64,000 bases of DNA from Eledone cirrhosa. Taxonomy: Eukaryota. A program made the translations under genes and the position numbers. Below are positions 14,543 to 56,935 of this stretch, piece by piece; positions within the stretch are counted from its first letter, which is position 1, and each line of letters opens with the position of its first letter. The stretch is taken from positions 26,598,001-26,662,000 of the forward strand of contig OZ024758.1 in assembly GCA_964016885.1 (NCBI GenBank), read 5' to 3'. Under the pieces are notes generated by a model. The model did not search any database, was not told the origin of the DNA, and was given only the letters and a program-made list of their open reading frames with translations.

Positions 14543-15357
14543 GAGTTAAACAAGATTCAATGAGTATATCAGAGAATGAGTTTTACAATAGATTGGAAGC
14601 ACTCTACGGAAAAATAATTTTCCAGAGTTATTAATATTAAAATACAAATATTAACAAAATAGATGTTCTTTTGATCAATTACATTTTATTATACATATTT
14701 CGGAGGTACAACAGTACGTCCTCATCAGACAAAATATAATGATACATGACATACCATGAGATGTTAAATGGTTAAGATTTAATCAAGGTAGTGATTAACC
14801 CAAGAGAAAATTCAACATTTATACCCTAATAATGAGAAAATGTGAAAACGTAATAAATTCAATAGAGAATGTGTGAGTAAGAAAAAAGAAAACGTTGGTT
14901 AATGTGACAGTTATAGAGATTTTAAAATGTAAGATACTACAAGTTATGGTTGTCTAGGAAAACTTCTCATGAATTATAACAGTCCATGAGGGCCGCTGAG
15001 AGGGGATTTAGAGAGAGGGAAAGATAAAGGGGGTTAATATATGCAGAAAGATATTTTTTCCAAAAGCTAAATGGTTAAGTTTCAAAATATTTAATTTATG
15101 TTATTTTAGGGTGAAGAATCAAGATTTAAGGTTTTTTTTAAAAGTTGCTGGTTATTTATATTTATTAATTTTATGTTGAATTTTCTCTTGGGTTAATCAC
15201 TACCTTGATTAAATCTCAACCATTTAACATCTCAGGGTATGTCATGTATTATTATATTTTGTCTGATGAGGACGTACTGTTGTACCTCCGAAATATGTAT
15301 AATAAAATGTAATTGATCAAAAGAACATCTATTTTATTAATATTTGTATTTTAATAT
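14539..15357. mobile_element. Penelope-like fold-back unit in (TA)n; ~185-bp inverted arms 14634-14818 and 15173-15357
   Basis: Near-perfect reverse-complement arms, each with an HHR; (TA)n on both sides. Confidence 0.75.
15256..15308 (+). ncRNA. Type I minimal hammerhead; mirror copy at 14683-14735 (-)
   Basis: AUUUUGU CUGAUGA GGA-C-GUAC UGUU GUAC-C-UCC GAAA UAUGUA UA AUAAAAU: 7-bp stem I, intact core, near-palindromic stem III. Confidence 0.8.
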
Positions 15358-15622
15358 ATATATATATATATATATGTATTAGGTTATGCAAGAAATGCTT
15401 AATTATTCTTTATATATATATATATATATATGTAGATAAATCTACCAAGAGTTTACGGTAGTGTCCAATCCGTATGAAGAACTCAATGTATTCCGGATAT
15501 CATGGAAAGAAGAGATGTAATGAAAAATCACTTTCGGTGAAAGATAAACGGTATACAGAGTCAAGATAAAATATTAAACAAATAATGAATAAACAATTCC
15601 TTATATTAAACAAAAAAAGTTC

Positions 15623-15770
15623 ATTATTTAACGATCGTTTCTAGGATATATATGTGTTAGAATTGGCATGCATATTCAACAGATCTATGTACAAAATTAT
15701 ACAAAATTATACAAACTATCAAGATTAAATATACATACCAACACATATATACGCCGTCTTCAGAAATAAT
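15623..15770 (-). ncRNA. Type I hammerhead with long stem II insertion
   Basis: AUUAUUU CUGAAGA [..GUAUAUAUGUGUU ~85 nt AACACAUAUAUAU..] GAAA CGAUCG UU AAAUAAU: 7-bp stem I, palindromic stem III, GUU site. Confidence 0.75.
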
Positions 15771-15788
15771 GGGGGTAGTGGGACGGGG

Positions 15789-15824
<36 letters not shown>

Positions 15825-16571
15825 CCCCGTCCCACTACCCCCACCCCATCCACACTACCCCCTAAAATGTGAAATTATGTTGGTACCACAACATCCAGTC
15901 CGAAACAAATGAGGTCGTGTAGGTGTCACAACAAAAAAAACACACAGTCCACGCTGTAATGTGGTCGTGTAGGTAACACGGTAAAAACCTCCCAGTTCCA
16001 CACTGTAAATGTGGTTGGTGTTAGGAAGGGCATCCAGCCATAGAAAACCTGCCAGACAGTCCTGAGCAAGATGACCAATCTTACCTCAAGTGGGACTACT
16101 CCCGTCTAAACCCATGCTAGCGTGGAAGATAGACGTTAAACGATGATGATGATGATGATATATATACAAGTTATTCCAGGTTCAATCGGGGGTAACCACA
16201 GTAAGTAAGGTACTCAATACATAACTCTCACGAATGAAACAGTTCTAGTCCTGTAGAAGTTTATATATATATATAAAAAAAAAAATCGATCGACTTTCGT
16301 CAAATCGGACCGAGGGAACAATGTTTCTGTTGGTCTTTCCAGTTGCTAGTACTATCTATCGGTCGCAACTCCAGGTAGAAGGAGCAACGTGAAATAAAGT
16401 GTCTTGCTCAAGGACATAACGTATCGCCTGGTCCAGGAATCGAACTCACAACCTTACGATTGCGAATCCAATTCTCTAACCACTCAGCCACACGCCTTCA
16501 CTATATATATATATATATATTTTGTTTGAAGATCAGAAATTCTTTGGCATCTTTGAAGGGTTTCGGGAATA

Positions 16572-16848
16572 TGGTGATGGCTGTAGTGGAGGTGGTGGCG
16601 GTGGTGGTAGCGGTGGCTGTAGTGGTGGTGGTGGTAGCTGTAGTAGTGGTGGTGGTGGTGGTGGCTGTAGTGGTGGTGGTGGCTGTAGTGGTGGCGGTGG
16701 CTGTAGTGGTGGTAGTGGTGGCTGTAGTAGTGGTGGTGGCTGTGGTGGTGGTGGTGGTGGTGGCTGTGGTGGTGGTAGTGGTGGCTGTAGTGGTGGTGGC
16801 TGTAGTGGTGGTGGTGGTGGTGGTGGCTGTAGTGGTGATGGTGGTGTA
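16572..16848. repeat. (GTG)n-type trinucleotide repeat; (CAT/CAC)n tract at 17192-17425
   Basis: Direct inspection. Confidence 0.95.
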
Positions 16849-17608
16849 GCAACAGCATCCTTAACCTTTACTTCTAGTTAGCTTCTGTCACTCTTTACCT
16901 CCGTCTATCTCACCTCTCTCTCCATCTTTCACTATTATAAGCAGGGCCCACTTGCTGGCCACAGGTTAACCGACAATATAGAAGCTCTCTTGTTGACAGG
17001 CTGTATAAGGCGTCAGTAATTTATCTTCTCCTTCGCTGCTGAAGAGGAAGAAGGAATTTATCAATAATCTAAATTTGCAACTTGGTTCCAGTTCTCTGAA
17101 ATTGCTTCAAATACAATGTTTTTGTCTTTGAGAAAAGCATTGATATTACAAATATCTTTATTTTTCGCTTGTATGCTTCTATAAAGACTTGTCATCATCA
17201 TCATCATCATCACCATCATCATCATCTCTACCACCATCGTCATCACCACCACCTCCACCATCATCATTATACCATCATCTCCACCACCATCATCATCATC
17301 ACCATCATCACCATCATCATCTTCACCACCACCATCATCATCATCACCTCCACCACCATCATCTCCACCACCATCATACCACCACCACCATCACCACCAC
17401 CACCACCACCATCACCTTCACCACTATGAGGTGGATTAACAGTATCGGTGGAACATAGGACAGACAATATGCTTTGTATCGTAGAGTTACGGCCCTTTAC
17501 CTTCTGAGTTCAAATCCCACCAAAGTTAACTTTGCCTTTCATCTTTAAGGGGTCGATAAAATAAAACACCAGTAATGCACTGGGGTCGATTTAACCCTTT
17601 AGCATTTT

Positions 17609-18105
17609 TCATTACTCTATATTTACTATTGTATTTTCACGGTAAATGCTTTACCTTACATAATATCTTACATAACATTTACATTACTCTATATTTACTA
17701 TTGTATTTTCACGGTAAAGGCTTTACCTTACATAATATCTTACATAACATTTACATTACTCTATATTTACTATTGTATTTTCACGGTAAAGGCTTTACCT
17801 TACATAATCTCACATAACATTCACATTACTCTATATTTACTATTGTATTTTCACGGTAAAGGCTTTACCTTACATAATATCTCACATACCATTCACATTA
17901 CTCTATATTTACTATTGTATTTTCACGGTAAAGGCTTTACCTTACATAATAATCTCACATAACATTCACATTACTCTATATTTACTATTGTATTTTCACG
18001 GTAAAGGCTTTACCTTACATAATATCTCACATAACATTCACATTACTCTATATATACTGTTATATTTTCACAGTAAAGGCTTTACTTCACATAAATATCT
18101 CACAT
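17609..18105 (+). repeat. ~72-bp tandem repeat (7 units) amplified inside a family A MITE
   Basis: Unit attactctatatttactattgtattttcacggtaaaggctttaccttacataatatctcacataacattcac; the same unit is amplified at 63800-64000. Confidence 0.9.
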
Positions 18106-18944
18106 AATATCGAATCTATGAGATTTTAATATTATTCATTTTGAGAACAATACCTTAACATCAATATGGGCGGCTAGTTGCAGCCAGTTTGAACAGAAAG
18201 AGGTGAAAGAATTCTGGCTGGATATGGTCGGTTTAAATGCTAAAAGTTTAATCGACTTTCCCCTTCCTCTTCAAAGTAGAAACATTTTTTTTTTTATTAA
18301 AATTATATGAGGAGGAAATTGTAGTGATGGTGGAGGTGGTGAAGTTGTTGGTAGCGGTGGGGGTAATGTTGGTAGTAACAGCTGTAGTGGTCCTACTATT
18401 AGTGTGCTTGATGGGTAGTAGTGGGTGTGGTTGGGTGTTAGAAGAGGTGATAATTCATACCGAGCTGTGGAGATTTTGTTTGATGTGTATAAAACTTATT
18501 GATCATTTTATACATTTACTACTGACTATGTTAACTATGTGCTGGCATATCGATCTATTAGTTTGAACTATAGGAAGATAATATTGATCACTTGGTTTAT
18601 TGCTATCTTGACTGTGACCAAGTAATTATAATAAGTTTTTGATGTTTGAATCCCTCGATTGTGATTGAGAGTTGAATTGAACTCGTTATATTCTACCTGT
18701 TAGATCTTTCTAGGAAGTTCTTTGTTAGGTTTTTATTTTATATGTTACATTGCTTTCTGAGTTGTAAAACTTGCATTTCATCTTTCATCTGAGGAATTAA
18801 TGAAAAGTATGAATTTTCCATAGGAAATTAATTCTAGCTGTGTATACAATTCATTATTCCATTCACAGACTGCAAAGAACTTTTTAGAATGCATTGTGTT
18901 TCTGGAAGCTACTCTTTCTTTCAAAGTGGTTTTGCGGTTTTTTT

Positions 18945-19420
18945 TCTTCTCCCCCTCACTTCTCTTTCCCTTTCGCCTCTCCCCTCCATCGCTTTCCCTT
19001 TTGCCTCTCCCCTCCATCTCTCTCCCTTTTGCCTCTCTCCTCCATCTCTCTCCCTTTCGCCTCTCCCCTCCATCTCTTTCCCTTTTGCCTCTCCCCTCCA
19101 TCGCTTTCCCTTTTGCCTTCCCTTCCATCGCTTTCCCTTTTGCCTTCCCTTCCATCGCTTTCCCTTTTGTCTCTCCCCCTCCATCTCTTTCCCTTTTGCC
19201 TTCCCCTCCATCGCTTTCCCTTTTGTCTCTCCCCCTCCATCTCTTTCCCTTTTGCCTCTCCCCTCCATCGCTTTCCCTTTTGCCTCTCCCCTTCCATCGC
19301 TTTCCCTTTTGCCTCTCCCCTTCCATCTCTTTCCCTTTTGCCTCTCCCCTCCATCTCTTTCCCTTTTGCCTCTCCCCCTCCATCTCTTTCCCTTTCGCCT
19401 CTCCCTCCCTCCCTCCTCCA
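18945..19420. repeat. Pyrimidine-rich ~26-30-bp minisatellite
   Basis: Unit approximately tccatc(g/t)ctttcccttttgcctctcccc. Confidence 0.95.
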
Positions 19421-19844
19421 TACTGGTTACCTGGAGTGGTATTGCATGAACATCAACCAATACTGGATGTTTTTACCATTTTGAAAATTTTAGCTTCTTC
19501 ATACAATAGGTCTTAATTTACTCCATGCTGTTAGAGGCTGTACTTTTGTTTTTTAAATATCTGTATATGTTTTGGGGGAGGTTTTGTTTATTCTGGAGAA
19601 ATTTCATCAATTTAAAATTTAGAATATTTCATTAATGATCTTTATATGACTGAAGTAAAGTAAAAGATCTAAATTGTATTTATGTGGGTACAGGTTATGT
19701 ACATGCATGTATGCGTATATGTGTGTGTATGCATGCATGTGTGTGTGTGTGTGTACAGCTTATGTACATGTAGGTATGCGTATGTGTGTGTGTGTGTACA
19801 GGTTATGTAGATGCATGTATGTGTGTGTGAACAAGTTATATATA

Positions 19845-21082
19845 CAGGGTGCGAACGATATTTGATCGCAAGATTACTGTCTAGGAAAAAATAACACAGT
19901 AGTTTTTTTTTTAAGATATATTTATCAAACTTGGGTCAGTTTGTCTTCATGACTTGTTCTTTCGATCTCACTCGATAAACCCGCCATTGGCTTTAATGAC
20001 GGCCTCAAGGCGGCCTCGGAACCGGCTACAGGCCTTCATCACTGTCCCCCGACTTAGGCCCCTAAAGGCACTTGAGATCCTGGCCTTCAGATCGTCTTTC
20101 GTATTGTAGCTAGATCTGTTGGTGTCTCGTTCCACTGCGCCCCACACAAAGAAGTCAAGGGGGTTGCAGTCAGGCGAGCTGACAGCCAGGCTTGGGTCTT
20201 TCGACTGGTATGGCAGGGCGCTGAGTCTTGCTACCACACGTACGGCCTACCTGCAGCTACCTGGTCGATCCAGGGCTTTACTAGCTCGCTCAGAATGCGG
20301 ATGTAGCCATCGGTGTTCAGCTTGAGGCCCTCGGGGAAGAAGTGAGGTGGCATGACATCATCTTGACTGCTGACGACACCTAAGACCAATGTTGTCGCTG
20401 GAAACTTTGTCAAAATGACTCTGGGCACGTCTTTGGATGAGACAGCGAATCACCTATTGTCTGGGAGTTGATCTTCTGGTCTTGGCAGAAGTTTTTCTCG
20501 TCGGAGAAAAACCACAGCATGTCTAGCTTCAGTCGGTGTTTCAACTTGTTGATCAGTCGCTTTTCTTGCTTCAGTCGCTTTTCTTGCATCGCCTTTGACA
20601 GAAATTGTCCTTTTCTCATCTTGTATGAAATGTAGCGAATGTCTTCAAGTACCACCAGCCTAATAAGCTTTTCATCCACGCCTTTCTCCCTTGCAATGGC
20701 ACGCATCGACTTGCTAGGTTCATTGTTGATGATATCCTGAACTTCAGCGATGAACTCGGGCGTTCTGAAGGCGTCAGATCGTCGATCATGTGTTTTCCTC
20801 TCTGATGTTGCTTCGTAGTCGAATCTTGAATCTTCCAATTCCTTTCTGACCTTTCCCACCATTCTCCTGTTGACGCTGAGAAAGTCTCAAATTTCCTTAT
20901 TTGTCCTCCCAGCGCGGATTCCACAAATTTGGAGGTTCAAAATTATTCATAGTCAATTATTCTGAAAATAAATAATGGAAATATAGTCACTGCTTTTATG
21001 AAGACAAGAGTGACAACGGAAGTAAAAAAATTTGCATAAAATTAGCAGTTGAAAATTGCGAACAAATATCGTCCACACCCTG
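19845..21082 (-). mobile_element. Tc1/mariner transposon (DD37D/maT-like), frameshifted
   Basis: TA target sites; TIRs cagggtgcgaacgatatttgatcgcaa / ttgcgaacaaatatcgtccacaccctg. Pieces WFFSDEKNF, SPDCNPLDFFVWG and ACSRFRGRLEAVIKANGGFIE. Confidence 0.9.
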
Positions 21083-21116
21083 TATATGTGTGTGTACCTG
21101 TTATGTACATGCATGA

Positions 21117-21158
<42 letters not shown>

Positions 21159-21333
21159 TACTCTTTCACCTGTTCCAGCCATCCGGCTGAGGCCATTCTG
21201 GGGCACCGACCTGAAAAATATATAAACTTCTTCGGGGATTGAGCACTTTGCACTTTGTGTCGTTTAAAAATGACAGTTGTACCAATCAACCACCAAGGCA
21301 GTTATATGTGTGTGTGTATGTATGTACACACAC

Positions 21334-21436
21334 ACAGGCTGTCCCCCAAAAATGTATACACACTTTGATTACTTGTACAGGCAATATTTATTTTAATGCT
21401 GTTGAAGTGTGTATACATCTTTTTGGACACTGTGTA
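21334..21436. mobile_element. Tiny Tc1-type MITE
   Basis: Inverted termini caggctgtcccccaaaaatgtatacacactt / aagtgtgtatacatctttttggacactgtg. Confidence 0.55.
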
Positions 21437-21464
21437 TACATACACATATATATATATATATATA

Positions 21465-21670
21465 TTTATTAACGTTTAAGCAAAGAATCGCTGCTTTCAC
21501 CCATAACGAGATCTTCTGAAACTAGTTAGTTAGTTTCATAAGATCCCGTTAAGGGTGAAAGCAGCGATTCTTTGCTTAAACTTTAATCTATTATTTTGCT
21601 CTACGGTTCTTATATATTTGATATATATTTATCCTTATTGAGCCCTCTTTGGATTTTAGTCTTCAAATTT
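21465..21670. mobile_element. Penelope-like fold-back unit, arms 21474-21524 and 21531-21581; same family as 52888-53286
   Basis: Hairpin adjoining (TA)n; each arm has hammerhead topology with core CAGAAGA or CAUAAGA. Confidence 0.65.
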
Positions 21671-21675
21671 ATTAT

Positions 21676-25743: not shown

Positions 25744-25978
25744 AATGAAATAATTAATAATTTTAGTAAATGCCTTAAATAATTCATTAATTAATTGAAA
25801 TAGAATGTATTTCATTAGAAATATGGTGGCCAAAGGGTTAAAGTAGAAGATAGTTGGAATAGATGTAAGTGAAACAGGGAGTACACTTCTTTTCTGTTAC
25901 TGGTTTAGATGAAGTGTGTTAGTGCGAAGAGGTTGTATCATTTGCATGTCAAAAATGTACTTTCTCCTTTTCATGCTG

Positions 25979-28480
25979 GTGCACCCAGCTCATCCTGTAA
26001 GGTGGTTGTGTTGGTGACACAACAAAAAGCACCCAGCTCATCTTGTAAGGTGGCTGTGTTGGTGACACAACAAAAAGCACCCAGCTCATCTTGTAAGGTG
26101 GTTGTGTTGGTGACACAACAAAAAGCACCCAGCTCATCTTGTAAGGTGGTTGTGTTGGTGACACAACAAAAAGCACCCAGCTCATCTTGTAAGGTGGCTG
26201 TGTTGGTGACACAACAAAAAGCACCCAGCTCATCTTGTAAGGTGGTTGTGTTGGTGACACAACAAAAAGCACCCAGCTCATCTTGTAAGGTGGCTGTGTT
26301 GGTGACACAACAAAAAGCACCCAGCTCATCTTGTAAGGTGGTTGTGTTGGTGACACAACAAAAAGCACCCAGCTCATCTTGTAAGGTGGTTGTGTTGGTG
26401 ACACAACAAAAAGCACCCAGCTCATCTTGTAAGGTGGTTGTGTTGGTGACACAACAAAAAGCACCCAGCTCATCTTGTAAGGTGGCTGTGTTGGTGACAC
26501 AACAAAAAGCACCCAGCTCATCTTGTAAGGTGGTTGTGTTGGTGACACAACAAAAAGCACCCAGCTCATCTTGTAAGGTGGCTGTGTTGGTGACACAACA
26601 AAAAGCACCCAGCTCATCTTGTAAGGTGGTTGTGTTGGTGACACAACAAAAAGCACCCAGCTCATCCTGTAAGGTGGTTGTGTTGGTGACACAACAAAAA
26701 GCACCCAGCTCATCCTGTAAGGTGGTTGTGTTGGTGACACAACAAAAAGCACCCAGCTCATCTTGTAAGGTGGCTGTGTTGGTGACACAACAAAAAGCAC
26801 CCAGCTCATCCTGTAAGGTGGTTGTGTTGGTGACACAACAAAAAGCACCCAGCTCATCTTGTAAGGTGGCTGTGTTGGTGACACAACAAAAAGCACCCAG
26901 CTCATCCTGTAAGGTGGTTGTGTTGGTGACACAACAAAAAGCACCCAGCTCATCTTGTAAGGTGGCTGTGTTGGTGACACAACAAAAAGCACCCAGCTCA
27001 TCTTGTAAGGTGGTTGTGTTGGTGACACAACAAAAAGCACCCAGCTCATCCTGTAAGATGGTTGTGTTGGTGACACAACAAAAAGCACCCAACTCATCTT
27101 GTAAGGTGGTTGTGTTGGTGACACAACAAAAAGCACCCAGCTCATCTTGTAAGGTGGTTGTGTTGGTGACACAACAAAAAGCACCCAGCTCATCTTGTAA
27201 GGTGGTTGTGTTGGTGACACAACAAAAAGCACCCAGCTCATCTTGTAAGGTGGCTGTGTTGGTGACACAACAAAAAGCACCCAGCTCATCTTGTAAGGTG
27301 GTTGTGTTGGTGACACAACAAAAAGCACCCAGCTCATCTTGTAAGGTGGTTGTGTTGGTGACACAACAAAAAGCACCCAGCTCATCCTGTAAGGTGGTTG
27401 TGTTGGTGACACAACAAAAAGCACCCAGCTCATCCTGTAAGGTGGTTGTGTTGGTGACACAACAAAAAGCACCCAGCTCATCTTGTAAGGTGGTTGTGTT
27501 GGTGACACAACAAAAAGCACCCAGCTCATCTTGTAAGGTGGTTGTGTTGGTGACACAACAAAAAGCACCCAGCTCATCTTGTAAGGTGGTTGTGTTGGTG
27601 ACACAACAAAAAGCACCCAGCTCATCTTGTAAGGTGGCTGTGTTGGTGACACAACAAAAAGCACCCAACTCATCTTGTAAGGTGGTTGTGTTGGTGACAC
27701 AACAAAAAGCACCCAGCTCATCTTGTAAGGTGGTTGTGTTGGTGACACAACAAAAAGCACCCAGCTCATCTTGTAAGGTGGTTGTGTTGGTGACACAACA
27801 AAAAGCACCCAGCTCATCTTGTAAGGTGGCTGTGTTGGTGACACAACAAAAAGCACCCAGCTCATCTTGTAAGGTGGTTGTGTTGGTGACACAACAAAAA
27901 GCACCCAGCTCATCTTGTAAGGTGGTTGTGTTGGTGACACAACAAAAAGCACCCAGCTCATCCTGTAAGGTGGTTGTGTTGGTGACACAACAAAAAGCAC
28001 CCAGCTCATCCTGTAAGGTGGTTGTGTTGGTGACACAACAAAAAGCACCCAGCTCATCTTGTAAGGTGGTTGTGTTGGTGACACAACAAAAAGCACCCAG
28101 CTCATCTTGTAAGGTGGTTGTGTTGGTGACACAACAAAAAGCACCCAGCTCATCTTGTAAGGTGGTTGTGTTGGTGACACAACAAAAAGCACCCAGCTCA
28201 TCCTGTAAGGTGGCTGTGTTGGTGACACAACAAAAAGCACCCAGCTCATCTTGTAAGGTGGTTGTGTTGGTGACACAACAAAAAGCACCCAGCTCATCTT
28301 GTAAGGTGGTTGTGTTGGTGACACAACAAAAATCACACAGCACACTCTGTAAGGTAATTGTATTGGTGACCCAACAAAATGCACCCTGTCTACCCTGTAA
28401 CGTGGTCGTGTTGGTGACAAAGCAAAAAGCACCCTGTCTGCTCTGTAAGGTGATCATATTGGTGACATGATGAAAAAGTA
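25979..28480 (+). repeat. 48-bp minisatellite (~52 units), second variant of the RTE 3' UTR unit
   Basis: Unit caacaaaaagcacccagctcatcttgtaaggtggttgtgttggtgaca; highly homogeneous, degenerating at the 3' edge. Confidence 0.96.
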
Positions 28481-30458: not shown

Positions 30459-30493
30459 ACCCTGATGAAAGACAGAATGTCTGAAATATAGGT
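30459..30493 (+). ncRNA. Minimal hammerhead motif in the loop of an imperfect inverted repeat (30356-30428 / 30520-30583)
   Basis: ACC CUGAUGA A AGACA GAA UGUCU GAAA UA UA GGU. Confidence 0.65.
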
Positions 30494-31940: not shown

Positions 31941-32000
31941 ATTTTATCTGATGAAAGCATACCAAAATTTTTGGTACCCTTGAAATATATATAACAGAAT
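31941..32000 (+). ncRNA. Hammerhead motif; same family as 39589
   Basis: AUUUUAU CUGAUGA AAG CA UACCAAAA UUUUUGGUA CC CUU GAAA UAUAUA UA ACAGAAU. Downstream sequence matches 39652-39690 and ends in (TA)n. Confidence 0.7.
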
Positions 32001-32239
32001 AAATATGGTTTTATAAATATAGTTTCCATTTATTTAATATCATTGTATATATATATATGTATGTATGTATATATATATATGTATATATATATATGTATGT
32101 ATATATATATATATGTATGTATATGTATATATATATTTTCCAAGAGATGTCAACATGAATGGACCTGTTATTTTTATCTAAAGACATTTTTTCCAATTCC
32201 AACCTGCCCGTCCCCTCAATCTATTTTATTCTCATTCTT

Positions 32240-32275
32240 TCTTCTGATGAAGGACTAGTGTCCGAAACGTTAAGA
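32240..32275 (+). ncRNA. Minimal hammerhead motif; degenerate relative at 53698-53735
   Basis: UCUU CUGAUGA A GGAC UAGU GUCC GAAA CG UU AAGA: 4-bp stems I and II, loopless palindromic stem III. Confidence 0.75.
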
Positions 32276-34839: not shown

Positions 34840-37800
34840 GTAATATCATTTTATTTAATTTGTAACTTTAATGATGCTCGTCATTATCATGATTTACCAT
34901 CCATTTGAGCTACAGAACTCACCTATGGGTCAGAGACTGCACCTCACTTACAAACATTCCTGCACTTTATAGAGTGCACTGGTGCATTTCATTACGAGAC
35001 CAGCACTGGGGAGGTTGTCATGTCATAGACACAAATGAAAACAGTCCTCTCGACCCATTGTTTGGCAAGTTTTCCACAGCTGCATGCCCTTATTGTCACC
35101 AACCACATTATCAACATATCTATTTGTTATATTTCCCATATGTTTTATTTTAGGTGCTTTTCTGATTCGTATTTTCATGTACAATATTTGTCATGTATCC
35201 CTGTCAATTGAGTCAAAAGATCCCAACCTGTATTGTTTTTTCTGTCTTATATTTGTTGCATTTTTATCCTAAATAGCCATCTTTTTTTGAGGAGTTATTG
35301 GTGTACTGGGAAAGGTGGTACTGTCTTAGTAACCAAAACCATAAAAATATCAAGCTGACAGCTAATGAGTGGGAAACTTGTTCGTCAGCTCTGAGTTTTC
35401 GGTGTGCTTTGTTTGACCCTATGTTAGTTTTGGAACTCTATATATCACACATTAAATGATCATGATACACCTTATTTATTTTGGTATGCATAAATATATT
35501 TCTGTTCTCCAGTACATATGAAATAACAATTTAAACATATAAATATATATATAGCATGATGCCTACACATATTGCATGACAAAGCAAAGTTAATATTAAG
35601 GGTGATTGATTCACAGGATTGTTAGAGTTACAGTATTTAATTGCAGCCCCTTAACCCTTTAGCATTTACATTACTCTATATATACTATTGTAGTTTCACA
35701 GTAAACACTTTATCTTACATAACATGGAATCTATGAGATATTGATATTATTTATTTTGAGAACAATACCTTAAAATAAGTATGAGCAGCCAGTTACAGCC
35801 AGTTTGAACAGAAAGAGGTGAGAGAATTCTGGCCAGATATGGCTGGTTTAAATGCCAGATAGTCCTATATTAGCGAGACACGGTCACCCGACCAGCCTTG
35901 CCTCAAGCGGGACAACTCCTGTCTAACCCATGCTAGCGTGGAAAATGGATGTTAAACGATGATGATGATGATGATGATATATAGAGTAATGTAAATGTTA
36001 TGTGAGATATTATGTGAAATAATTATGTGAGGTAAAGCCTTTACCATGAAAATATAATAGTATATATAGAATAATGAAAATGCTAAAGGGTTAATATGTG
36101 TGGATTTGTGCCAATGGTAGAAATTAACAGTGCCCATTCATCATCATCATCGTCGTTGTCATCGTATGTCTATTTTCCATGCTTGCAGAGGTTAGATGAG
36201 TTATCATATACTGAGGTTTGACTGGTTAGGTGACCTCATCTTGCTCATATGTTCCATTTTTGGCTTGGTTTCTACAGCTAAGTGTCCTTCCTGATGTCAG
36301 CCACTTTACAGCATTTACTGGGAACATTTTATCGTGATTACAGCACTACCCACCTTACAAGCTGAACTGTGTGAATTTTGTCATGGCACCGGCACTACCA
36401 CCTTACAGGGCAGACAAGGGGCTTTTTGGAATGACACTGGCACAACTGGGTGCTTTTTATTATGCAATTTGGGGAGAGGGGAATGTCGATTAAATTGATC
36501 CAAGTGCATTACTGGTACTTTATTTTATCGACCCTGTAATGATTTATGATTTAGACACAAGTCCAGTAATTTGGGGTTGTGGGGAAAGCTGATTATATCG
36601 ATCCCAGTTCTTTGGTACTTTGTTATCAACCCCGTAAGGATGGAAGGCAAAGCTAAACCTCGGCAGGATTTGAACTCAGAATGTAAAGGGCCATAACTCT
36701 ATGCTACAAAACATGGTGTCCATTGCTCTACTGATACTGGCAATCCACCGCTGTTTAGAGAAATAATAATTGTTCTATTTTTGGCACAAGGCCAGCAATT
36801 ACTCAGTGTATTACTGGTACTTTATTTTATCGACTCCCGTAAGGATGAAAGGCAAAGTTAACCTTGGCGGGATTTGAACTCAGATCATAAGAGAAATAAT
36901 AATACAAAGAAATACTTTCAAGTTTATGTGTCTGTCTGTACATACATACATGAACACACAACCTTTACCTTCTATCTAATATATGCTACAACATAAAAGT
37001 ACAGGAGTATACCTGGCAAATTTATTTCAATGAGGTTGAAGTTTGCAAAAACACAATATCATTTTTACTAGAAGTAAAGGTTTCATAGAAAATAAAATGT
37101 TTATAGATGATTCTTACAATTTGATTCACATAAAGGTTTTCCTCTTAATTCAAAGTCACTGACCCGGAAAGAAAAAAAGCCTAGTTACATTCCAACACTG
37201 GAAGGAGAAGAAACTACTAGATTTATAGGAGTAGACTTCCAATGAAATCAAATGTGCTTTCAAACGTTTTCTTTTATACATTGTGTGTATCTGTCTCTGT
37301 ATTGAAAATTCAAAGGTGAACATTATATATATATATGTAGTTCACAGCTGAGAGAATAGAATACTCAATACCGAAGTAGAGTTTAAATATTCATTTTATT
37401 AAGGTTAAATAGTTAGTCTTGTTATGCTTGAGCTTTGCCTGTTTATCAGAATAAATAAGACTCTAGAGTAACAAGACTCACTATTTAGCCTTAATATAAT
37501 ATATATATGTATATATAAATTGGAGGCACATGGCTTAGTGGTTAGAGCATTGGCCTTGTAATCGAAAGGTTGTGAGTATATATAGATGTGTGAGTATATG
37601 ATGATGATCATCATCATTTACATGTCCATTTTTCTAGTCCACTACACTGCATGCTCCATTTGATGTGTAATATTAATGCCAGGTGTAGGATCAGTTGGCT
37701 GAAATTAACAGATGATATGGTGCTACTTAACTGGTTGGCTGGTGATCTCCGACATGCATCAGATAGGTTTGCTGCTAAGTGCTACACTGTGGAAAGGAAA

Positions 37801-39207: not shown

Positions 39208-39246
<39 letters not shown>

Positions 39247-39249
<3 letters not shown>

Positions 39250-39693
39250 AAAGTTCTATTTAAATTGTTGGGATACAACAAGCAAATAGTTTTATAACTG
39301 ATATAAAACACTCGACAAGTATTTGGAGTAAATATACAATATTAACAAATGGAAACTATATTTATAAAACCATATTTATTTCATTATACATATTTCAAGG
39401 ATACCATGTTAAATTTATGGTATGCCTTCATCAGACAAAATACATATATACCAGTTTTATAAATAAACATTGACGTACCCTTTCAAAATGCAACCGTTAC
39501 TTTTGGAAGACATCAGGACTTCCAAAAGTAACGGTTTGCATTTTGAAAGGGTACGTCAATGTTTATTTATAAAACTGGTATATATTGTATTTTGTCTGAT
39601 GAAGGCATACCATAATTTAACATGGTATCCTTGAAATATGTATAATGAAATAAATATGGTTTTATAAATATAGTTTCCATTTGTTAATATCGT
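39247..39693. mobile_element. Penelope-like fold-back unit in (TA)n; arms ~39335-39509 and 39519-39693, 9-nt loop
   Basis: Near-perfect ~175-bp hairpin with an HHR in both arms. Confidence 0.75.
39589..39651 (+). ncRNA. Type I hammerhead; mirror copy at 39378-39441 (-)
   Basis: AUUUUGU CUGAUGA AGG-C-AUACCAU AAUUUAAC AUGGUAU CCUU GAAA UAUGUA UA AUGAAAU. Confidence 0.8.
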
Positions 39694-39717
39694 ATATATA
39701 TATATATATATATATGT

Positions 39718-44600: not shown

Positions 44601-44645
44601 ACTAAAACCAGTGCAATAGCTGCAGTAATAAGAAAAATTCCAATT

Positions 44646-45147
44646 TCACATTTTAGTAGTCAGATGATAGCAAATGATAGTTTATTCGTTGGAAATGCAC
44701 TTATTCACCCCATAGAGTTTATTCATTGGAAATGCACTTATTCACCCCATACAGGTTAATTTAACTAATGTCACTTTCTAGGAAGTCAAATACCAAATAA
44801 TAATTGTTTCTACTTTTGGCACAAGGCCAGCAATTATCCCAGTGTATTACTGGTACTTTATTTTATCGACGCTTTAAGGATGAAAGGCAAAGTTAACCTC
44901 GACGGGATTTGAACTCAGATCACGCCGAGGTTAACTTTGCCTTTCATCCTTACGGGGTCGATAAAATAAAGTACCAGTAATACACTGGGATAATTGCTGG
45001 CCTTGTGCCAAAAGTAGAAACAATTATTATTTGGTATTTGACTTCCTAGAAAGTGACATTAGTTAAATTAACCTCTATGGGGTGAATAAGTGCATTTCCA
45101 ACGAATAAACTATCATTTGCTATCATCTGAATACTAAAATGTGAAAT
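44646..45147. repeat. Fold-back of a SINE A 3' half plus unique flank (arms ~44646-44904 and 44923-45147)
   Basis: Reverse-complement identity extends ~120 bp beyond the SINE tail into non-repeat DNA. The left arm has a ~37-bp tandem duplication at 44685-44755. Confidence 0.9.
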
Positions 45148-50066: not shown

Positions 50067-50109
<43 letters not shown>

Positions 50110-50629
50110 GTCTGAAGACGCATGACTCTTAGTGGTTAAAGCATTGGGCTTGCAATCGAAAGGTTGTGAGTTCAATTCTCAGACCAGGTGATGTGTTGTT
50201 TCCTTGAGCAAGACACTTTATTTCACGTTGCTCCAGTTTACTCAGCTGTAGAAATGTGATGGTAGGGACTGGGGTCCATATCATTCCACTGCAAAGTGGT
50301 CAAAAAAGCACCCAACACTCACTGTAAAGTGAATGTGTAGGGGCCACAGAAAAAAAAGCACCCAGCACTCACTGTAAAGTGAACGTGTAGGGGCCACAGA
50401 AAAAAAAGCACCCACCACTCACTGTAAAAAATGAGGTTGGTGTTAGGAAGGGCATCCAGCTGTAGAAATCAAGCCAGAATCAGTTCCCGTATGAGCAAGA
50501 CAAGGTCAGCCGACCGGACACTGCCCACATCAGGACAACCCGGCTAACCCATGCTAGCGTGGAAGAATGGATGTAAAACGGTGATGATATAATATATATA
50601 TTTATTTATTTAATGTTTAATATAGAAAT

Positions 50630-50681
50630 GGCATCTACAGGACTAGAACTGTTTCATTCGAAGGAAATCATCAGGAATGCC
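50630..50681 (-). ncRNA. Type I hammerhead with all three helices
   Basis: GGCAUUC CUGAUGA U UUC CUUC GAA U GAAA CAG UUCUAGUC CUG UA GAUGCC; GUA site. A core-less relative lies at 16170-16260(+). Confidence 0.75.
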
Positions 50682-52372
50682 TTTGAATGCCTTACTTACT
50701 GTGGTAACCCCTGATTAAACCCAGGATACACACACATATATATATTTGTGTGTGTGTGTCATCATCATCACCATTTAATGTCCCTTCTCCTTGCTAGAAG
50801 GGTTGGATAATATATATCAACATCATCATCATTTAACATCTGTCTTCCCTGCTTCAGAAATTTAAATTTATACATAAATCCTGCACTGGTCTTTACACAT
50901 ACAGTCAGTCCTCAAATGAAGATACTGATCCTTCTGATGGGCTGGGGGCCTGCATCTTGCTTACATATGTTCCTACACAGTGCCAAGTGCATTTTATCAT
51001 GGCACCAGCATTTGGAGGCTTGTCCCTTTGAGAAAGAAGTCTTTTGTTGTCAGAAGAGGTATTAGCTCATTAAATGTCTTCCAACCTGTTCATACCGTGT
51101 CTACCCACCATTTTAGAGCTACCTGCCCTTCTGATAATTAGGAGAGGTAACAGAGGTAACAAAAGCTGGGAACAACTTCTAGGGAACCACCTTAGCTACC
51201 TGTCAATTGAGGGAGTGTGACCTGACCCATCTATGTGACTCCCACATTCCACTATCACTTCCTCTGCCCCCCCCCCTCCCTTATTCAGCGTTGAAGATGT
51301 GAGCTGACCCATTCATGTCCCACTTGCACTATCACTTACTAACTATTCTCGGGGGTGGGGGGGGTCACTGAACACACCACCGCCACATCACCGTTTACCC
51401 TTCCTCCCTTCACTATCAAGCCTTAGTAGCTATTATCACCACCGCTCCACTTCACCACCACCACCATCACCCTGACTCTATCCAGAATCAACTCCACCCA
51501 TCTCCCACTTTATCCAGCCCCCCCCCCCCAAAAAAAAAAATCCTGACATACCACCAATCATAACCCCTTATCATCACAACACCTTCTTCCCACACCCCAT
51601 GCTATCACAGGTCACCCCTGCCTTCTGCTTATCACCCTTGATATTTATGTTCCATTTATTTAGTAAACAGATCTTGCTACTAAGTGATTAGGCATGTAAA
51701 GTACCACAACTTAGTTAAAAACAAAAACAAAAAAACAAAAACAAAAAACAAATGAGGGCTGGCATCAGGAAATGTATCCAGGCATAGAATTTTGTCTCAA
51801 AATGTCTCATCCAAACTATGCCTCCATTGACTAAGTTGCACAGAATTGATGATGATGTGCTTATGTGTGTGTGTATATATATATATATATATCATCATCA
51901 TCATCATCGTTTAATGTCTATCTTCCACGCTAGCATGGGTTTAGACGGGAATTGTCCCATGTGAGGCAAGATTGGTTGTCTTGCTCGTATAGGACTATCT
52001 GGCGGGTTTTCTACAGCTGGATGCCCTTCCTAACACCAACCACATTTACAGTGTGGACTAGGTGGTTTTGACTGTGTTACCTACACGGCCACATTACAGC
52101 GTGGACTAGGTGTTTTTTTTTTGTCATGGCACCTACACGACCTCATTTATTTAGGACTGGATGTTGTGGTACCAACATAGCTTTACATCGAAAGGGGTGG
52201 TGTAGATGGCGATGGGGGTAGTGGGACGGGCTGTATTTTGGTTAAGAGGTGCCTACTGACTGTAGGTTTCGCTTTGTACTTAGGCAAAGCGTGTCTTCTG
52301 TATTACTGTGTAGCGCCAAAGATCTCGGTCCAGTGACAATGTCTAGGAGAGGTGTAAGTGTATATATATATA

Positions 52373-52888
52373 TACTAGCTGAATTACCTGCGCCTTGCTG
52401 CGTTTCACACATTTTCTTTGTAAGAAAATGATGATTGATTTTAAATCAGTGATATAATTTATGGAGATAAACTCTGCATTTCAATATTACTCAATGTAAA
52501 ATGTAATGCATGAAAAATTGGAAAACATTATTTTTGATAATATATCAAATCAAAATTACATTATTAAATCTTATTCTTATTTTGTTTCTCGTAAATAATT
52601 TTTTTCAAAATATCAATTCAAAACTTTTGTGAATAGGCATCATATCTTGTCATTTACCTATGGTTTAAATTTCATATAAATCAAAGGGAAACAATTTTCA
52701 GCAGTGGTTTTGTGCGTCCGGGGAACCCTTTCTTTAAAATGAAATATACTTATCCAAGTACCCTGGGCAATGTAGTTTCAGAATATATATGGTTATGGGG
52801 TAGGGGTGTCTATCTCCAAAACCATAGGAGTAGTTCATGAACAAACAAACAAACAAACAGACATGAATACAACTTTATATATATATAG
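52373..52888 (+). mobile_element. Helentron/HINE-like non-autonomous element; short relative at 48741-48808
   Basis: 5' tactagctg..cctgcg.. start, subterminal (aaac)n-agaca microsatellite, 3' ctttatatatatatag end. Confidence 0.5.
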
Positions 52889-53286
52889 AAATAATAATAA
52901 ATTTGAAGACTAAAATCCAAAGAGGACTCGATAAGGATAAATAATATCAAATATATAAGAACCCTAGAGCAAATATTTATTAAAATAACAGATTAAAGTT
53001 TAAGCAAAGAATTGCTGCTTTCACCCTTAACGGGATCTTCTGAAACTAACAAAGTCAATCTGTAAACACAGAAGTGGATATTTCAAAAAACGTTGCAACA
53101 TGTGTTTTGTGAAGGGAACGTTTCCACGAACCAAGGTATCGTCTTCCTGTCTTCCTCCGGTTGCAACGTTTTTTGAAATATCCACTTCTGCGTTTACATA
53201 TTGACTTTGTTAGTTTCAGAAGATCCCGTTAAGGGTGAAAGCAGTGATTCTTTGCTTAAACTTTAATCTGTTATTTTAATAAATAT
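52888..53286. mobile_element. Penelope-like fold-back unit in (TA)n; arms 52973-53099 and 53160-53286
   Basis: ~125-bp inverted arms with variant-core hammerhead topology at 52997-53047(-) and 53212-53262(+). Confidence 0.7.
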
Positions 53287-53820
53287 ATATATATATATAT
53301 ATATAATAACTAGGAATTGATCAACATATATATAAAGATGAAAAATCACAGGAGATAATTTCTACAAGCGTGTAACCACGCATGGCTAGTAGGTAACAAA
53401 TAAATAAAGTTAACTAGAACTTCAAAAATATATACCTTTTTAATGATTAATCTTCCCTGTATATATTTCACCAATTAATCAGATGGTAAGTCACAGAAAG
53501 TGGATATTATTGGATTATCAACAAGGAAGAATAATATCATATATATATATGTGTGTGTGTGTCTGAGCATATAGCTCCCCTTTTTTAACTTCATTTTTTT
53601 CAAATGTATATTCCGTTTAATTCCGTTTCTATTTATTTCGATTTCATGTTTTATTTCTATTTTTATTTTTCCCCTCCTTTCATGTTTTTCCTGCTAACTC
53701 TCCTGATGAAGGACTTACATCCGAAATGCCATAATCTCCCCCATTCTCACCAAGCGTGAAGCTAATAACACTATGTACCATTGACTCCTGCGTTTGTTTG
53801 TTTGTTTGTTTGTCATTTTG

Positions 53821-53856
<36 letters not shown>

Positions 53857-54070
53857 TAAGTATCGAGAGAGAGAAGAAGAGATAAGCGTTACATATATTT
53901 AGTTGCCAATAGCTTGTGCAAATGTGCTCAATACTTGTGCCTACAGGGTTAAATATTAGAAGCGTTAATATCTAGCAGGCGAGAATATAAGCAAGTGGAA
54001 TGAATACAAAGGAGTATATACCGTTAAAACATGTTTATATAAGAATGCACCTACATGTATTCATTCCACT

Positions 54071-54145
<75 letters not shown>

Positions 54146-54178
54146 CATGGACCAAAGTTCTGTTCCAACCATTTATTA

Positions 54179-54223
54179 GCTTACAATTGTTTCTTGCAAA
54201 CCGAGGTTTGGAGTCTTCGGAGC
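54179..54223 (-). ncRNA. Hammerhead motif with C at core position 4
   Basis: GCU CCGAAGA CUC CAAACC UC GGUUUG CAA GAAA CAAUUG UA AGC; the unit lies between (GA)n and (TA)n. Confidence 0.55.
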
Positions 54224-54711
54224 AATTTTTTCAATGAATGTTTACATACATGACCCCCTTTCCAACACAAGAGACATACAGAAACACATGTATATATCGA
54301 TGCACAGTGGGTTGACATCCATTATAATATATTAGCATGGCAATTTACATTCAAAGATTAAAGTCATATTAAAAGAAAACAAAATTAAAGTTAAAATACA
54401 ACATTGGCAGTTTACGAAGATAATGCAAGAGGATAGTTTGAAGTAGTTAGTGTATGTAATAGTTACACGTGGGGCATGCACGTGTGTCTTATATAAATAA
54501 GATTATAGTGCGGCAAGGTGTTATATGGAATACAAGCACTTTAAGCGGGCAATCAAGAGTATTATGGGGGTTGTATTGGTAAAGAATTTTTTATGTATGA
54601 TATAGAAGCTTGTGTGCAGAGAAATATTAAAAGTGAGAAGCAAAATAATGTTATGGTTTTCGTATACACCACCATTTTCACAATCCAGGAAATATATGTA
54701 TATATATATAT

Positions 54712-54955
54712 ATATTGGTTAAAGGAAAAGAAAATGCTGACAAATTGTTCCCAGTGAAAAATAGTTTAATTAGGAATAAGTAAAAATTAGTAATAAGTAT
54801 TGGTTAATATTCAGTTAGTATTCAACATGACCGCAATTCACTAATTTTTATTTATTCCTAATTAAACTATTTTTCACTGGGAACAATTTGTCAGCATTTT
54901 CTTTTCCTTTTACCAATATATCACAACTCGTGTGTTACACCTCTATTCTTTTAAA
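54712..54955. repeat. Fold-back unit between (TA)n tracts (arms ~54712-54790 and 54839-54920); no HHR seen
   Basis: Reverse-complement arms of ~80 bp. Confidence 0.75.
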
Positions 54956-54976
54956 TATATATATGTATATATATAT

Positions 54977-55340
54977 GTAGGAGGTGAGTTTTATTGTAGC
55001 ACAATAAAGCAATGCAAATATCGGATAAGTAGCACTCAACAGTTTATTGGACTGGAGTATATATAAGAAGAAATTAAAAGATGGTTAAAAAAGTTCCATG
55101 TATTTTATTATGCGTATTTCAAAAACAAATATCATCCAGGGACGATATTTGCATTCTCATCAGATAAAATGTTGTTTAGACACTACCTTGCTCACAAGTG
55201 TCTTTTTTAAGCTTCATATCATGTCTCCCTATTTTATCCGATGAGAACGCAAATATCGTCCCTGGATGATATTTGTTTTTGAAATGCGCATAAAATACAT
55301 GGAACTTTTTTAACCATTTTTGAATTTCTTCTTATATATA
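54977..55340. mobile_element. Penelope-like fold-back unit in (TA)n; arms 55060-55170 and 55231-55340
   Basis: HHR at 55102-55170(-): AUUUUAU CUGAUGA GAA-U-GCAAAUAUCGUCC CU GGAUGAUAUUUGU UUUU GAAA UACGCA UA AUAAAAU. The mirror copy at 55231-55296 has CCGAUGA and a 3-nt deletion. Confidence 0.75.
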
Positions 55341-55789
55341 TATATATATATATATATATCATCATCATCATCATTTTCCACGCTAGCATGGGTTAGACAG
55401 GTTGTCCCATTTGAGGCAAGTTGCGTTAAGAACGGTATCCAGCTGATGAAGCCAAGCCCAAATCACTCTGTATGAGCAAGACTGGTCACCTGACTTGACA
55501 TTGCTCGCAACAGGACAACTCGTCTAACCCATTCTAGCATGGAAAACTGGATGTTAAACAGTGATGATGATTATATATGTATGTGTGTGTATATATATAT
55601 GTATGTGTGTGTATATATATATATATATTAGAATTGGAGCTCTGAAATAGCAATATATATATGGATGTATATATAATGTATTTTGCAATACACTTTATGC
55701 TTAATTAAAAGCATTTTGAAGACCGTAAGCTATTGTTTTAAAGTAGTGACAAATTCACTCACTTTGATCTCAGCAAACAGGGGAGATAA

Positions 55790-55831
55790 GCCGACAAGAC
55801 TTGTTTCGCTTTGGTTGAAGCTTATCAAGGC
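55790..55831 (-). ncRNA. Hammerhead motif with U3-A8 core covariation
   Basis: GCC UUGAUAA GCUU CAACCA AAGC GAAACAAG U CUUGUC GGC; GUC site; lies between 34-bp direct repeats. Confidence 0.65.
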
Positions 55832-56395
55832 CAACTACCCCACCTGTTTACTGAGATCATTGATGTTATATTCTTATAGAAATCTAGTAAATAATCAGGA
55901 GCTGATTATGCAGAGCGGTTGTTGGTCAGGCAGAAATTAAAAATTAGAATTGGAGCTCTGAAATAGCAATATATATATTAGAAAGGGTGTTAGGAAGGGC
56001 ATCCAGCTGTAGAAATCAAGCCAAATCAGTTCCTGTATGAGCAAGGCATTGTCAGCCGACCAGACACTGCCCATAACAGGACAACCCGTCTAACCCATGC
56101 TAGCGTGGAAGAACGGACGTAAAACGGTGATGATGATGATAATCAAATTCTAAACTAACCAAATAAAAGTTCCATACCATTATTAGTTTCAACATGCACA
56201 CTTACCTGCTAAAAACATTACCTGTGGGTAAAAATATTGGAGGAACAAATTGTATTGGACCAGAAATGTAAGGAAACCTTGAAAAGTAATTTACACTCAT
56301 CTACTAGGCAATACCACCAACAACTTCATCATTAGTGGTACAGTAACATTTAATGTGTTTGACAAATGTTTATGGTGAAAATATATGAAGCCAAT

Positions 56396-56429
<34 letters not shown>

Positions 56430-56433
<4 letters not shown>

Positions 56434-56935
56434 TTAGGTTTGAGGTTCACCACTAGATAGAGCTGGTCAATTCCGTATGGTCAATCTTAATGTAATAATA
56501 TGGAGAGTACTCAACGTAAAGCAGTTCAACCGTCTTTGTTTTTGTAGTTGGTGGTGCTAGTACGGAGTTAAATATTATAATGAAATGACAGGAGGCTGGA
56601 CTTGTGTAAATCCTTGAAAGGTTTATTATACTATGATCATTTCAATGACCGAGTTCCGTATGAATCCGGTGATATCAGCAGGTATTCTAAATATAATAAG
56701 TGAATGCAATAGATAAAATCCATGGGGCTGAAAATCAAAGACCGGAGGACGACCGCCATCCAGCATCTTCCACCTTTGCCCATGGATTTTATCTATTGCA
56801 TTCACTTATAATATTTTGAATACCTGATGATATCACCGGATTCATACGGAACCCGGTCATTAAAATGATCATAGTATAATAAACTTTTCAAGGATTTACA
56901 CAAGTCCAGCCTCCTGTCATTTCATTATAATTATT
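56430..56935. mobile_element. Penelope-like fold-back unit in (TA)n; arms 56574-56727 and 56778-56931
   Basis: HHR consensus AUAC CUGAUGA UAUC ACCGG..CCGGU CAUU GAAA UGAUCA UA GUAU at 56628-56685(-) and 56820-56877(+). Confidence 0.75.

What the first reader, a model, noticed from the sequence alone, without database searches (positions are those of the whole stretch)
14601..56568. Conserved bulged ACUC...GAGU stem-loop in the 3' tail of unrelated ribozyme units, marking where the inverted arm stops
Seen on +: ACTC-TA-cGGAAAA..TTTTCCa-GAGT (14601-14628), ACTC-AA-TGTAT..ATACA-GAGT (15481-15561), ACTC-AA-TAC cgaa GTA-GAGT (37363-37382), ACTC-GA-CAA gtat TTG-GAGT (39310-39329), ACTC-GA-TAAGG..CCCTA-GAGC (52926-52970), ACTC-AA-CAGT..ACTG-GAGT (55034-55058), ACTC-AA-CGTA..TACG-GAGT (56509-56568); opposite orientation GCTC-TACGG..CCTTA-TT-GAGC (21598-21643). 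On the ribozyme strand this reads RCUC-[variable helix]-U(U/C/A) bulge-GAGY. The upper helix differs in sequence between families yet pairs, and the +strand mismatches at 14601 and 52926 become G-U pairs on the ribozyme strand. It lies between the HHR and the (TA)n junction, and in fold-back units the second arm ends within ~0-15 nt of its base. Inference: a cis-acting RNA element (RT/endonuclease binding or priming signal) defining the PLE 'tail'. I do not know of a description of this motif.
Basis: partly seen in the sequence, partly recalled or inferred. Interest (0 to 1): 0.88.

Follow-up and report, generated by a model that had tools for sequence, protein, structure and literature searches.

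The report
Twin hairpins mark retroelement copying starts
A small bulged hairpin occurs twice in front of the gene of one group of telomerase-related jumping genes, and the two ends of a mirror-image insertion nearly always stop a few bases before one hairpin each, so it likely tells the element's enzyme where to start copying, which would explain these elements' puzzling one-sided 'tail'.

Summary
They are the first (hp1) of two copies of a motif, RCUC-Y..R-U(U/C/A)-GAGY. Both lie in the 5' leader of Hydra-clade Penelope-like elements (PLEs), between hammerhead and start codon. hp2 lies just beyond the tail end, so it appears only in tandem or full-length copies and not in this window.

In 654 kb of unselected genome, 70 of 80 (TA)n-joined ends stop within 11 nt before hp1 or hp2. 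Of 20 classifiable fold-backs, 19 use one of each. Among 50 non-redundant Hydra-type elements from other organisms, 44 carry at least one hairpin and 28 two; the in-ORF control is 0 of 50. Two other PLE types lack it.

Likely role: an RNA anchor setting the two reverse-transcription starts, the tail being the interval between them. This is untested. Nine literature searches found no description; the closest is an AC-rich stem-loop at an RT start of an anole Poseidon element. This scan noted the same twin hairpins seven times on other pieces of this genome.

The parts
14601..14628 (-). hp1 of Hydra-clade family F3
   Evidence: tandem copies L009/L019 continue to hp2 (98 nt further) and a Hydra-type ORF
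14538..14633 (-). tail of the F3 insertion (hp1-to-hp2 interval), joined to (TA)n 14506-14537
14698..14728 (-). hammerhead core, long arm of F3
15173..15357 (+). inverted short arm of F3 (hammerhead 15263-15293), stops 5 nt before the hp1 position, then (TA)n
15481..15561 (-). hp1 (long interior) of family F9, the pLTR of a young family with an open 813-aa ORF; (TA)n 15411-15430; variant hammerhead core 15638-15682
   Evidence: L300-L302: hp1, hp2 138-139 nt later, ATG
21598..21643 (+). hp1 of family F10, second copy; fold-back 21468-21587; 3' side runs into another repeat
37363..37382 (-). hp1 of a decayed copy (F51); short arm 37461-37506; clade not tied to an ORF here
39310..39329 (-). hp1 of family F2; hammerhead 39393-39434; fold-back 39329-39700; (TA)n 39218-39247 and 39693-39714
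52926..52970 (-). hp1 of family F10; variant hammerhead core 53019-53042; fold-back 52973-53286
55034..55058 (-). hp1 of family F0; hammerhead 55117-55163; fold-back 55058-55340
56509..56568 (-). hp1 of F4, a ~2.6-kb tandem unit in which no PLE ORF was found, keeping hammerhead (56640-56681), hp1 and hp2; fold-back 56574-56931
31948..32046 (+). solo short arm of an F2-type copy that ends in (TA)n where hp1 would begin
50620..50674 (-). solo short arm of family F5 ending in AT-rich sequence before hp1

Best explanation
The motif is the first of two conserved bulged hairpins in the 5' leader of Hydra-clade Penelope-like elements, and each hairpin likely acts as an RNA anchor that positions the element's reverse transcriptase to start copying a few bases upstream of it. 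Shown: the order hammerhead - hp1 - hp2 - start codon; inserted copies end mostly 2-6 nt before hp1 or hp2, at an AUA/UAU stretch that matches the (TA)n target; a fold-back insertion almost always has one end of each kind; the tail is the hp1-hp2 interval. Inferred: the GIY-YIG endonuclease cuts (TA)n on both strands; each 3' end anneals to the U/A stretch just 5' of a protein-bound hairpin and primes one cDNA; the cDNA begun at hp2 copies hp1 and the tail, the one begun at hp1 does not; the two 5'-truncated products are joined head to head. One protein dimer on one RNA is the simplest account of the one-of-each rule, but it is not shown.
For: Ends: 70 of 80 (TA)n-joined ends in unselected DNA lie -1 to 11 nt before hp1 (34) or hp2 (36). 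Contigs of run X1 show (TA)n loose ends 5 nt before hp1 and 3 nt before hp2 of family F1. In other organisms 12 of 19 scored ends lie 0-5 nt before a hairpin. hp2 was predicted from a published consensus, then found unasked in 4 run-on copies of F4 and in the leaders printed. For F1, F2 and F0 the closing strand, which the search did not ask for, formed a hairpin under 60 nt in 19/21, 19/19 and 15/20 loci. The hp2 pattern has 3,326 genome matches against 18 for the reversed control. Pairing rule: 19 hp1/hp2, 1 hp2/hp2, 0 hp1/hp1. Covariation with no pairing asked: 21, 23, 17 of 27 clusters pair above a 2-nt 3' bulge; closing pair 13 A-U, 13 G-C, 1 G-U; 69, 51, 47 of 86 in metagenome elements against 55, 35, 33 permuted. 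Two clusters show the basal double change GUUC/GAAC. Breadth: 44 of 50 outside elements; 3 of 6 published Hydra consensi from coral and sea cucumber match exactly. The pair is kept in a unit with no ORF and in families whose hammerhead core has drifted. Precedent: purified Poseidon protein extends both target strands from two internal RNA sites that bound the tail (PMC11167929).
Against: No binding, probing or priming data. Genomic ends cannot separate priming from cutting, since both predict TA at the junction. Strand is not resolved (7 G-U, 8 A-C). Free-RNA folding is mixed: in own-genome leaders the hp1 basal stem exceeds 0.75 probability in 4 of 9, and the 5' arm of hp1 can pair with the 3' arm of hp2; in outside leaders it is 18 of 26 (hp1) and 21 of 26 (hp2) above 0.5. 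Permutations ignore relatedness. In the anole element RT starts inside a stem-loop, not 5' of it. A third PLE type here has two 3' ends about 56 nt apart without this motif. 10 of 80 ends fall elsewhere, and 7 more unselected fold-backs had an unclassified end. 6 of 50 outside leaders had no hairpin.
Confidence: 0.66

Rival explanations
1. The hairpins act in DNA: the endonuclease recognises the folded single-stranded cDNA (or extruded duplex) and cuts a longer intermediate a few bases beside each hairpin, resolving it into ends with and without tail.
For: Craig et al. [quoted passage not shown] Frangieh et al. report that the D. virilis endonuclease needed the tail for recognition and cleavage of plasmid DNA (the original paper was not read). 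The endonuclease prefers AT-rich sites, which lie just before each hairpin. No G-U excess.
Against: In vitro the two tail ends of the anole element are RT start sites on the RNA. The motif sits where ribozyme and leader RNA structure lie, and hp2 is absent from inserted fold-backs, so it must act before integration.
Confidence: 0.15
2. The hairpins direct RNA processing (cleavage or termination just 5' of each stem), making two RNA 3' ends that RT then copies from the very end, as LINEs do.
For: A fixed offset 5' of a stem in A/U-rich RNA fits nuclease cleavage (general knowledge). Frangieh et al. note RNA-seq read ends at the same sites.
Against: It needs two RNAs per fold-back and does not by itself give the 19:1:0 rule. 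Internal initiation on unprocessed RNA is what was seen in vitro for Poseidon.
Confidence: 0.12
3. The hairpins serve RNP assembly or translational control only; ends fall nearby because the adjacent A/U stretch offers microhomology to (TA)n.
For: Every mapped end has TA microhomology, and hp2 lies 34-71 nt before the start codon.
Against: Leaders are A/U-rich throughout, yet ends cluster at two points whose spacing follows the hairpin spacing (78-144 nt by family). A unit with no ORF keeps both hairpins. The one-of-each rule is unexplained.
Confidence: 0.07

Closest known systems
Hydra clade of C-terminal EN+ Penelope-like elements (Craig et al. 2021, PMC8557442; read: passages, supplement parts 1, 2, 52, 53 and two supplement searches)
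   Same: Single ORF with RW(K/R) and DKT motifs, C-terminal GIY-YIG, hammerhead in the pLTR, (TA)n targets, tandem and inverted copies with a one-sided tail.
   Different: The paper does not mention the hairpins ('hairpin' 0 hits in the main text) although its consensi contain them. Tails here are about 78-144 nt rather than 30-40. Several families have non-canonical hammerhead cores, and one has a 3' region over 4 kb.
PAc (Poseidon, Anolis) two internal RT start sites and AC-rich stem-loop (Frangieh et al. 2024, PMC11167929; read: parts 1-2 of 4 of the main text)
   Same: Two starts downstream of the hammerhead bound the tail; both target strands are cut and extended; a dimer is predicted; ribozyme cleavage is dispensable in vitro.
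   Different: One element, region inside the ORF, start within a stem-loop, no conserved motif reported. Here a repeated, clade-wide, non-coding motif lies 3' of each end. The PAc sequence file could not be read, so likeness of its stem-loop to this motif is untested.
Non-LTR retrozymes (Li et al. 2026 bioRxiv 10.64898/2026.07.22.740005; read: parts 1-2 of 5)
   Same: The F4 unit (56509) is a non-coding, hammerhead-bearing tandem unit related in layout to PLE pLTRs.
   Different: F4 is about 2.6 kb (their consensus range is 51-972 bp) and keeps both hairpins; no such signal appears in the parts read.
RT-anchoring RNA elements: R2 3' UTR, telomerase RNA template-flanking elements, hepatitis B epsilon (recalled, no call)
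   Same: A structured RNA element binds RT and fixes where copying starts.
   Different: No sequence likeness tested or claimed; those act once per RNA, whereas this motif is doubled and each copy marks one end of an insertion.

Membership tests
Hydra-clade PLE | N-terminal RWK-type motif | tested here: met
   RW followed by R/K/T in all 10 rows of alignment A1 that reach that column, covering F9, F10, F1, F0, F2
Hydra-clade PLE | DKG modified to DKT | tested here: met
   DKT in 12 of 13 covering rows, DKS in one
Hydra-clade PLE | C-terminal GIY-YIG-type endonuclease in a single ORF | tested here: met
   813-aa open frame in L300 ends with a Cys linker and YIG region; read by eye, since Pfam GIY-YIG did not hit it
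Hydra-clade PLE | CCHH motif absent from the endonuclease | not tested
   no endonuclease alignment was made
Hydra-clade PLE | canonical hammerhead in pLTR | tested here: inconclusive
   canonical core in 3 of 8 window units, one mismatch in 3, none found in 2; family F1 has no canonical core
Hydra-clade PLE | (TA)n insertion preference | tested here: met
   80 of 84 non-run-on ends in unselected DNA join (TA)n
Hydra-clade PLE | short element (<3 kb) | tested here: inconclusive
   F1 tandem period about 3.5 kb; F9 about 6.4-6.7 kb because of a microsatellite-rich 3' region
Hydra-clade PLE | phylogenetic placement with named Hydra references | tested here: inconclusive
   quick tree groups 8 own-genome and 27 metagenome RTs apart from two motif-less PLE types on very long branches; published reference proteins were not in the tree
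Hydra-clade PLE (units 56509 and 37363) | link to a Hydra ORF | tested here: not met
   F4 has no PLE ORF in its 2.6-kb unit; F51 had no long copy; assigned by motif only
Rfam RNA family | covariance-model match at the hairpins | tested here: not met
   none of the 150 listed window matches (E up to 1) is a credible family over the eight sites; the list was filled by AT-repeat noise and may be cut
RT start-site signal like that of PAc | cDNA starts at the site in vitro; protein binds the element | not testable with these tools
   only genomic ends available

The most novel reading that the evidence does not exclude
Hydra-clade PLEs integrate by coordinated double priming: a dimeric RT-endonuclease holds two like hairpins on one RNA, and each subunit primes one broken end of the (TA)n target just upstream of its own hairpin. 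A single event thus builds the inverted, one-tailed insertion. The hairpin would be a portable, ~20-nt internal start signal for a telomerase-related RT, conserved across animal phyla and used in trans by non-coding passengers.
Probability: 0.45. Interest if true: 0.86.

Novelty: new variant of a known kind. Interest (0 to 1): 0.74.

Why it matters
How PLEs, the sister group of telomerase, make their inverted ends and optional tail has been open for two decades; one in vitro study placed RT starts inside the RNA but gave no general signal. A short, doubled, clade-wide motif with a fixed offset to both ends, plus a one-of-each rule, turns the question into simple mutational tests. It also gives a rule for annotating element boundaries and for recognising non-coding passengers, and a candidate minimal signal for internal priming by an RT.

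Tried and rejected
Rfam scan of the window: only AT-repeat noise and one weak hammerhead hit. First guess of the Naiad clade: rejected, the endonuclease is C-terminal and RW/DKT motifs are present. Protein-coding constraint: rejected, the interior varies from a few to over 100 nt and both hairpins lie before the start codon. A general PLE feature: not supported; a Neptune-like family (L240-L269, L420, L422) and a third type (L270-L299, L421) lack it between hammerhead and ORF (the single hit in L270 belongs to a neighbouring F1 copy). In the Craig supplement, 4 of 8 hits to the 3' strand lay in the Hydra file; the other 4, in Naiad/Chlamys consensi, showed no matching 5' arm in the context shown. 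Link of F4 to the Neptune-like ORF in L402: rejected, it joins through a TA run and other copies lack it. Strand from G-U/A-C counts: uninformative. Sequencing runs: no RNA holder listed. Viral contigs: no relative. Pfam did not recognise the Hydra ORF. No covariance model or R-scape run was made; the variable interior aligns poorly, so anchored pair counts were used. Literature searches with no description of the motif; subscription papers, Repbase notes, figures and bioRxiv supplements were not seen and may bear on novelty. Earlier-finding search among relatives: nothing.
Full report
OBSERVATION. The window lies in a 3-Gb animal genome (G000:C19). All eight strings are present. On the hammerhead strand they read RCUC-Y-(variable helix)-R-U(U/C/A)-GAGY. 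Seven units have inverted arms whose outer end stops 0-14 nt from the hairpin base. The eight sites are seven families, since 52926 and 21598 are one. Five families searched by DNA gave 1,552-1,799 first-look candidates each. The strict motif occurs 10 times in the window against 2.85 in shuffles, maximum 8. In 654 kb of unselected DNA (window plus 59 stretches), a scan that knew nothing of the motif found 40 one-tailed fold-backs, 16 with the strict motif at the start of the tail and several more with decayed versions by eye.

WHAT CARRIES IT. Where a tail runs on instead of ending in (TA)n, it leads into a PLE ORF with the RW(K/R) and DKT motifs that Craig et al. 2021 give for the Hydra clade. 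This holds for the families at 14601, 15481, 39310, 52926/21598 and 55034. The family at 15481 has copies with an open 813-aa frame. The family at 56509 is a ~2.6-kb tandem unit in which no PLE ORF was found. The 37363 family could not be tied to an ORF. A Neptune-like family and a third PLE type lack the motif, as do five other hammerhead-like units in the window. The third type has two 3' ends about 56 nt apart, so tails can be made without this motif.

THE SECOND HAIRPIN. The published consensus Hydra-1_Ajap begins with two copies of the motif, which predicted a second hairpin just past the tail end. It is there: GCUC-C..G-U(U/A/C)-GAGC in the leaders of F3, F9, F10 and F35, and in 4 run-on copies of F4 found without asking for it (a fifth listed run-on joins another element). 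For F1, F2 and F0 the searches asked for the tail end plus RCTC (356, 65 and 281 matches). The unasked closing strand completed a hairpin under 60 nt in 19/21, 19/19 and 15/20 loci, with a Hydra ORF start after 14, 17 and 19 of them. The hp2 pattern matches 3,326 times in the genome against 18 for the reversed control. Of its first 30 loci, 21 lead into a Hydra ORF and 19 have hp1 upstream. No hp2 occurs in the window, as expected if copying starts before it.

ENDS. In unselected DNA, 80 (TA)n-joined ends of nine families fall 34 before hp1, 36 before hp2 (-1 to 11 nt, mostly 2-6) and 10 elsewhere; 4 ends were not TA-joined and 1 ran on. Offsets are upper bounds on the copied length because of TA microhomology, and some shift when the reference differs from the subfamily. 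Contigs of run X1, possibly the genome's own source, show TA loose ends 5 nt before hp1 (75 contigs) and 3 nt before hp2 (313) of F1, among the 8 rows shown of 200. Fold-backs with both ends classed: 19 hp1/hp2, 1 hp2/hp2, 0 hp1/hp1 in unselected DNA, with 7 more unclassified; tail-selected loci gave 72 mixed and 1 hp2/hp2. Independent choice would give about half mixed.

STRUCTURE. From 278 motif-blind fold-backs in 83 clusters, 27 had RCTC near the arm end and a later GAGY, with no pairing asked. Above a 2-nt 3' bulge 21, 23, 17 and 14 of 27 pair; other registers give 3-18; the closing pair is A-U 13, G-C 13, G-U 1. Two clusters show GUUC/GAAC. These permutations ignore relatedness. Folding of free RNA supports the stems in some leaders and favours cross-pairing in others.

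BREADTH. Hydra-type ORFs from genome and metagenome contigs (6 + 78 loci, 34-43% identity) fell into 67 clusters; 17 had too little leader. Of 50 scored, 44 have at least one hairpin and 28 two or more. Controls: 0 of 50 inside the ORF, about 2 of 50 in shuffles, 13 of 50 on the reverse strand, the motif being nearly self-complementary. Spacing is 55-72 nt in 27 of 28, hp2 lies 34-71 nt before the ORF, and ACUN follows 65 of 86 candidates. There, 12 of 19 scored ends lie 0-5 nt before a hairpin. Hosts of these contigs are unnamed; an animal origin is inferred. By eye, of six published Hydra consensi three match exactly (coral Hydra-2_Amil, sea cucumber Hydra-1 and -2_Ajap), the sea-louse one nearly, and two show no clear match.

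MECHANISM. Shown: layout, end positions, the one-of-each rule, covariation, and restriction to one clade among the three PLE types tested. Inferred (0.66): each hairpin binds the element's protein and sets an internal RT start just 5' of itself, primed by a cut (TA)n end; two such starts on the two target ends give an inverted insertion whose extra tail is the hp1-hp2 interval. This extends the in vitro result for the anole Poseidon element, where two internal starts bound the tail and both strands are extended (PMC11167929). Rivals: endonuclease resolution at DNA hairpins (0.15), RNA processing (0.12), an unrelated role plus microhomology (0.07). Strand could not be settled from sequence, and the dimer was not tested.

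NOVELTY. The elements are a known clade; tails and two start sites are known. The doubled motif, its fixed offset to both ends and the one-of-each rule were not found in nine searches or in the passages read of PMC8557442, PMC11167929, PMC4209133, PMC3846280 and the 2026 retrozyme preprint. Seven earlier notes of this scan on other pieces of the same genome reach the same twin-hairpin reading. I read them after recording my own result, and they are not independent evidence. Verdict: real, new variant of a known kind, interest 0.74.

Noticed in passing
L300-L302, L111, L210-L239; window 15431-15790: A very young Hydra-clade family (150 of 150 scored hits 99-100% identical, many 830-codon frames) has a microsatellite-rich 3' region over 4 kb and a non-canonical hammerhead core (CUGUUGA), yet keeps both hairpins.
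   Followed up: partly
L270-L299, L421: A third PLE type (hammerhead, TA targets) has two main 3' ends about 56 nt apart and a minor one near the hammerhead, without the RCUC motif; its tail begins with a T-rich tract that may pair with the tail end. It could use a different signal.
   Followed up: no
L373:1423-1522 (family F1) and other leaders: The 5' arm of hp1 can pair with the 3' arm of hp2, giving an alternative long-range fold that wins in free-energy folding for several families; a possible conformational switch.
   Followed up: partly
L400, L401, L403; window 56429-56931: F4 is a ~2.6-kb tandem unit with hammerhead, both hairpins, an internal ~236-nt duplication and only a 57-codon frame after hp2; a large retrozyme-like passenger.
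   Followed up: partly
window 14144-14167 (-), 32244-32267 (+), 53703-53726 (+), 30462-30486 (+), 55772-55842 (-): Hammerhead-like units lacking the motif; the first three look like one group with a short stem II.
   Followed up: no
window 54710-54921: A separate 212-nt palindrome with a short tail abuts the 55034 unit across a TA run; 11 related fold-backs clustered (C6) without the motif.
   Followed up: no
window 44643-45147: Near-perfect ~400-nt palindrome around a short repeat fragment, not hammerhead-bearing.
   Followed up: no
L423-L428: Six contigs filed in bacterial genome bins encode Hydra-type PLE proteins; probably animal DNA in the bins (inference).
   Followed up: no
window 5400-7700 and 25900-28480: Long 48-bp-period minisatellite arrays giving spurious long reading frames.
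   Followed up: no
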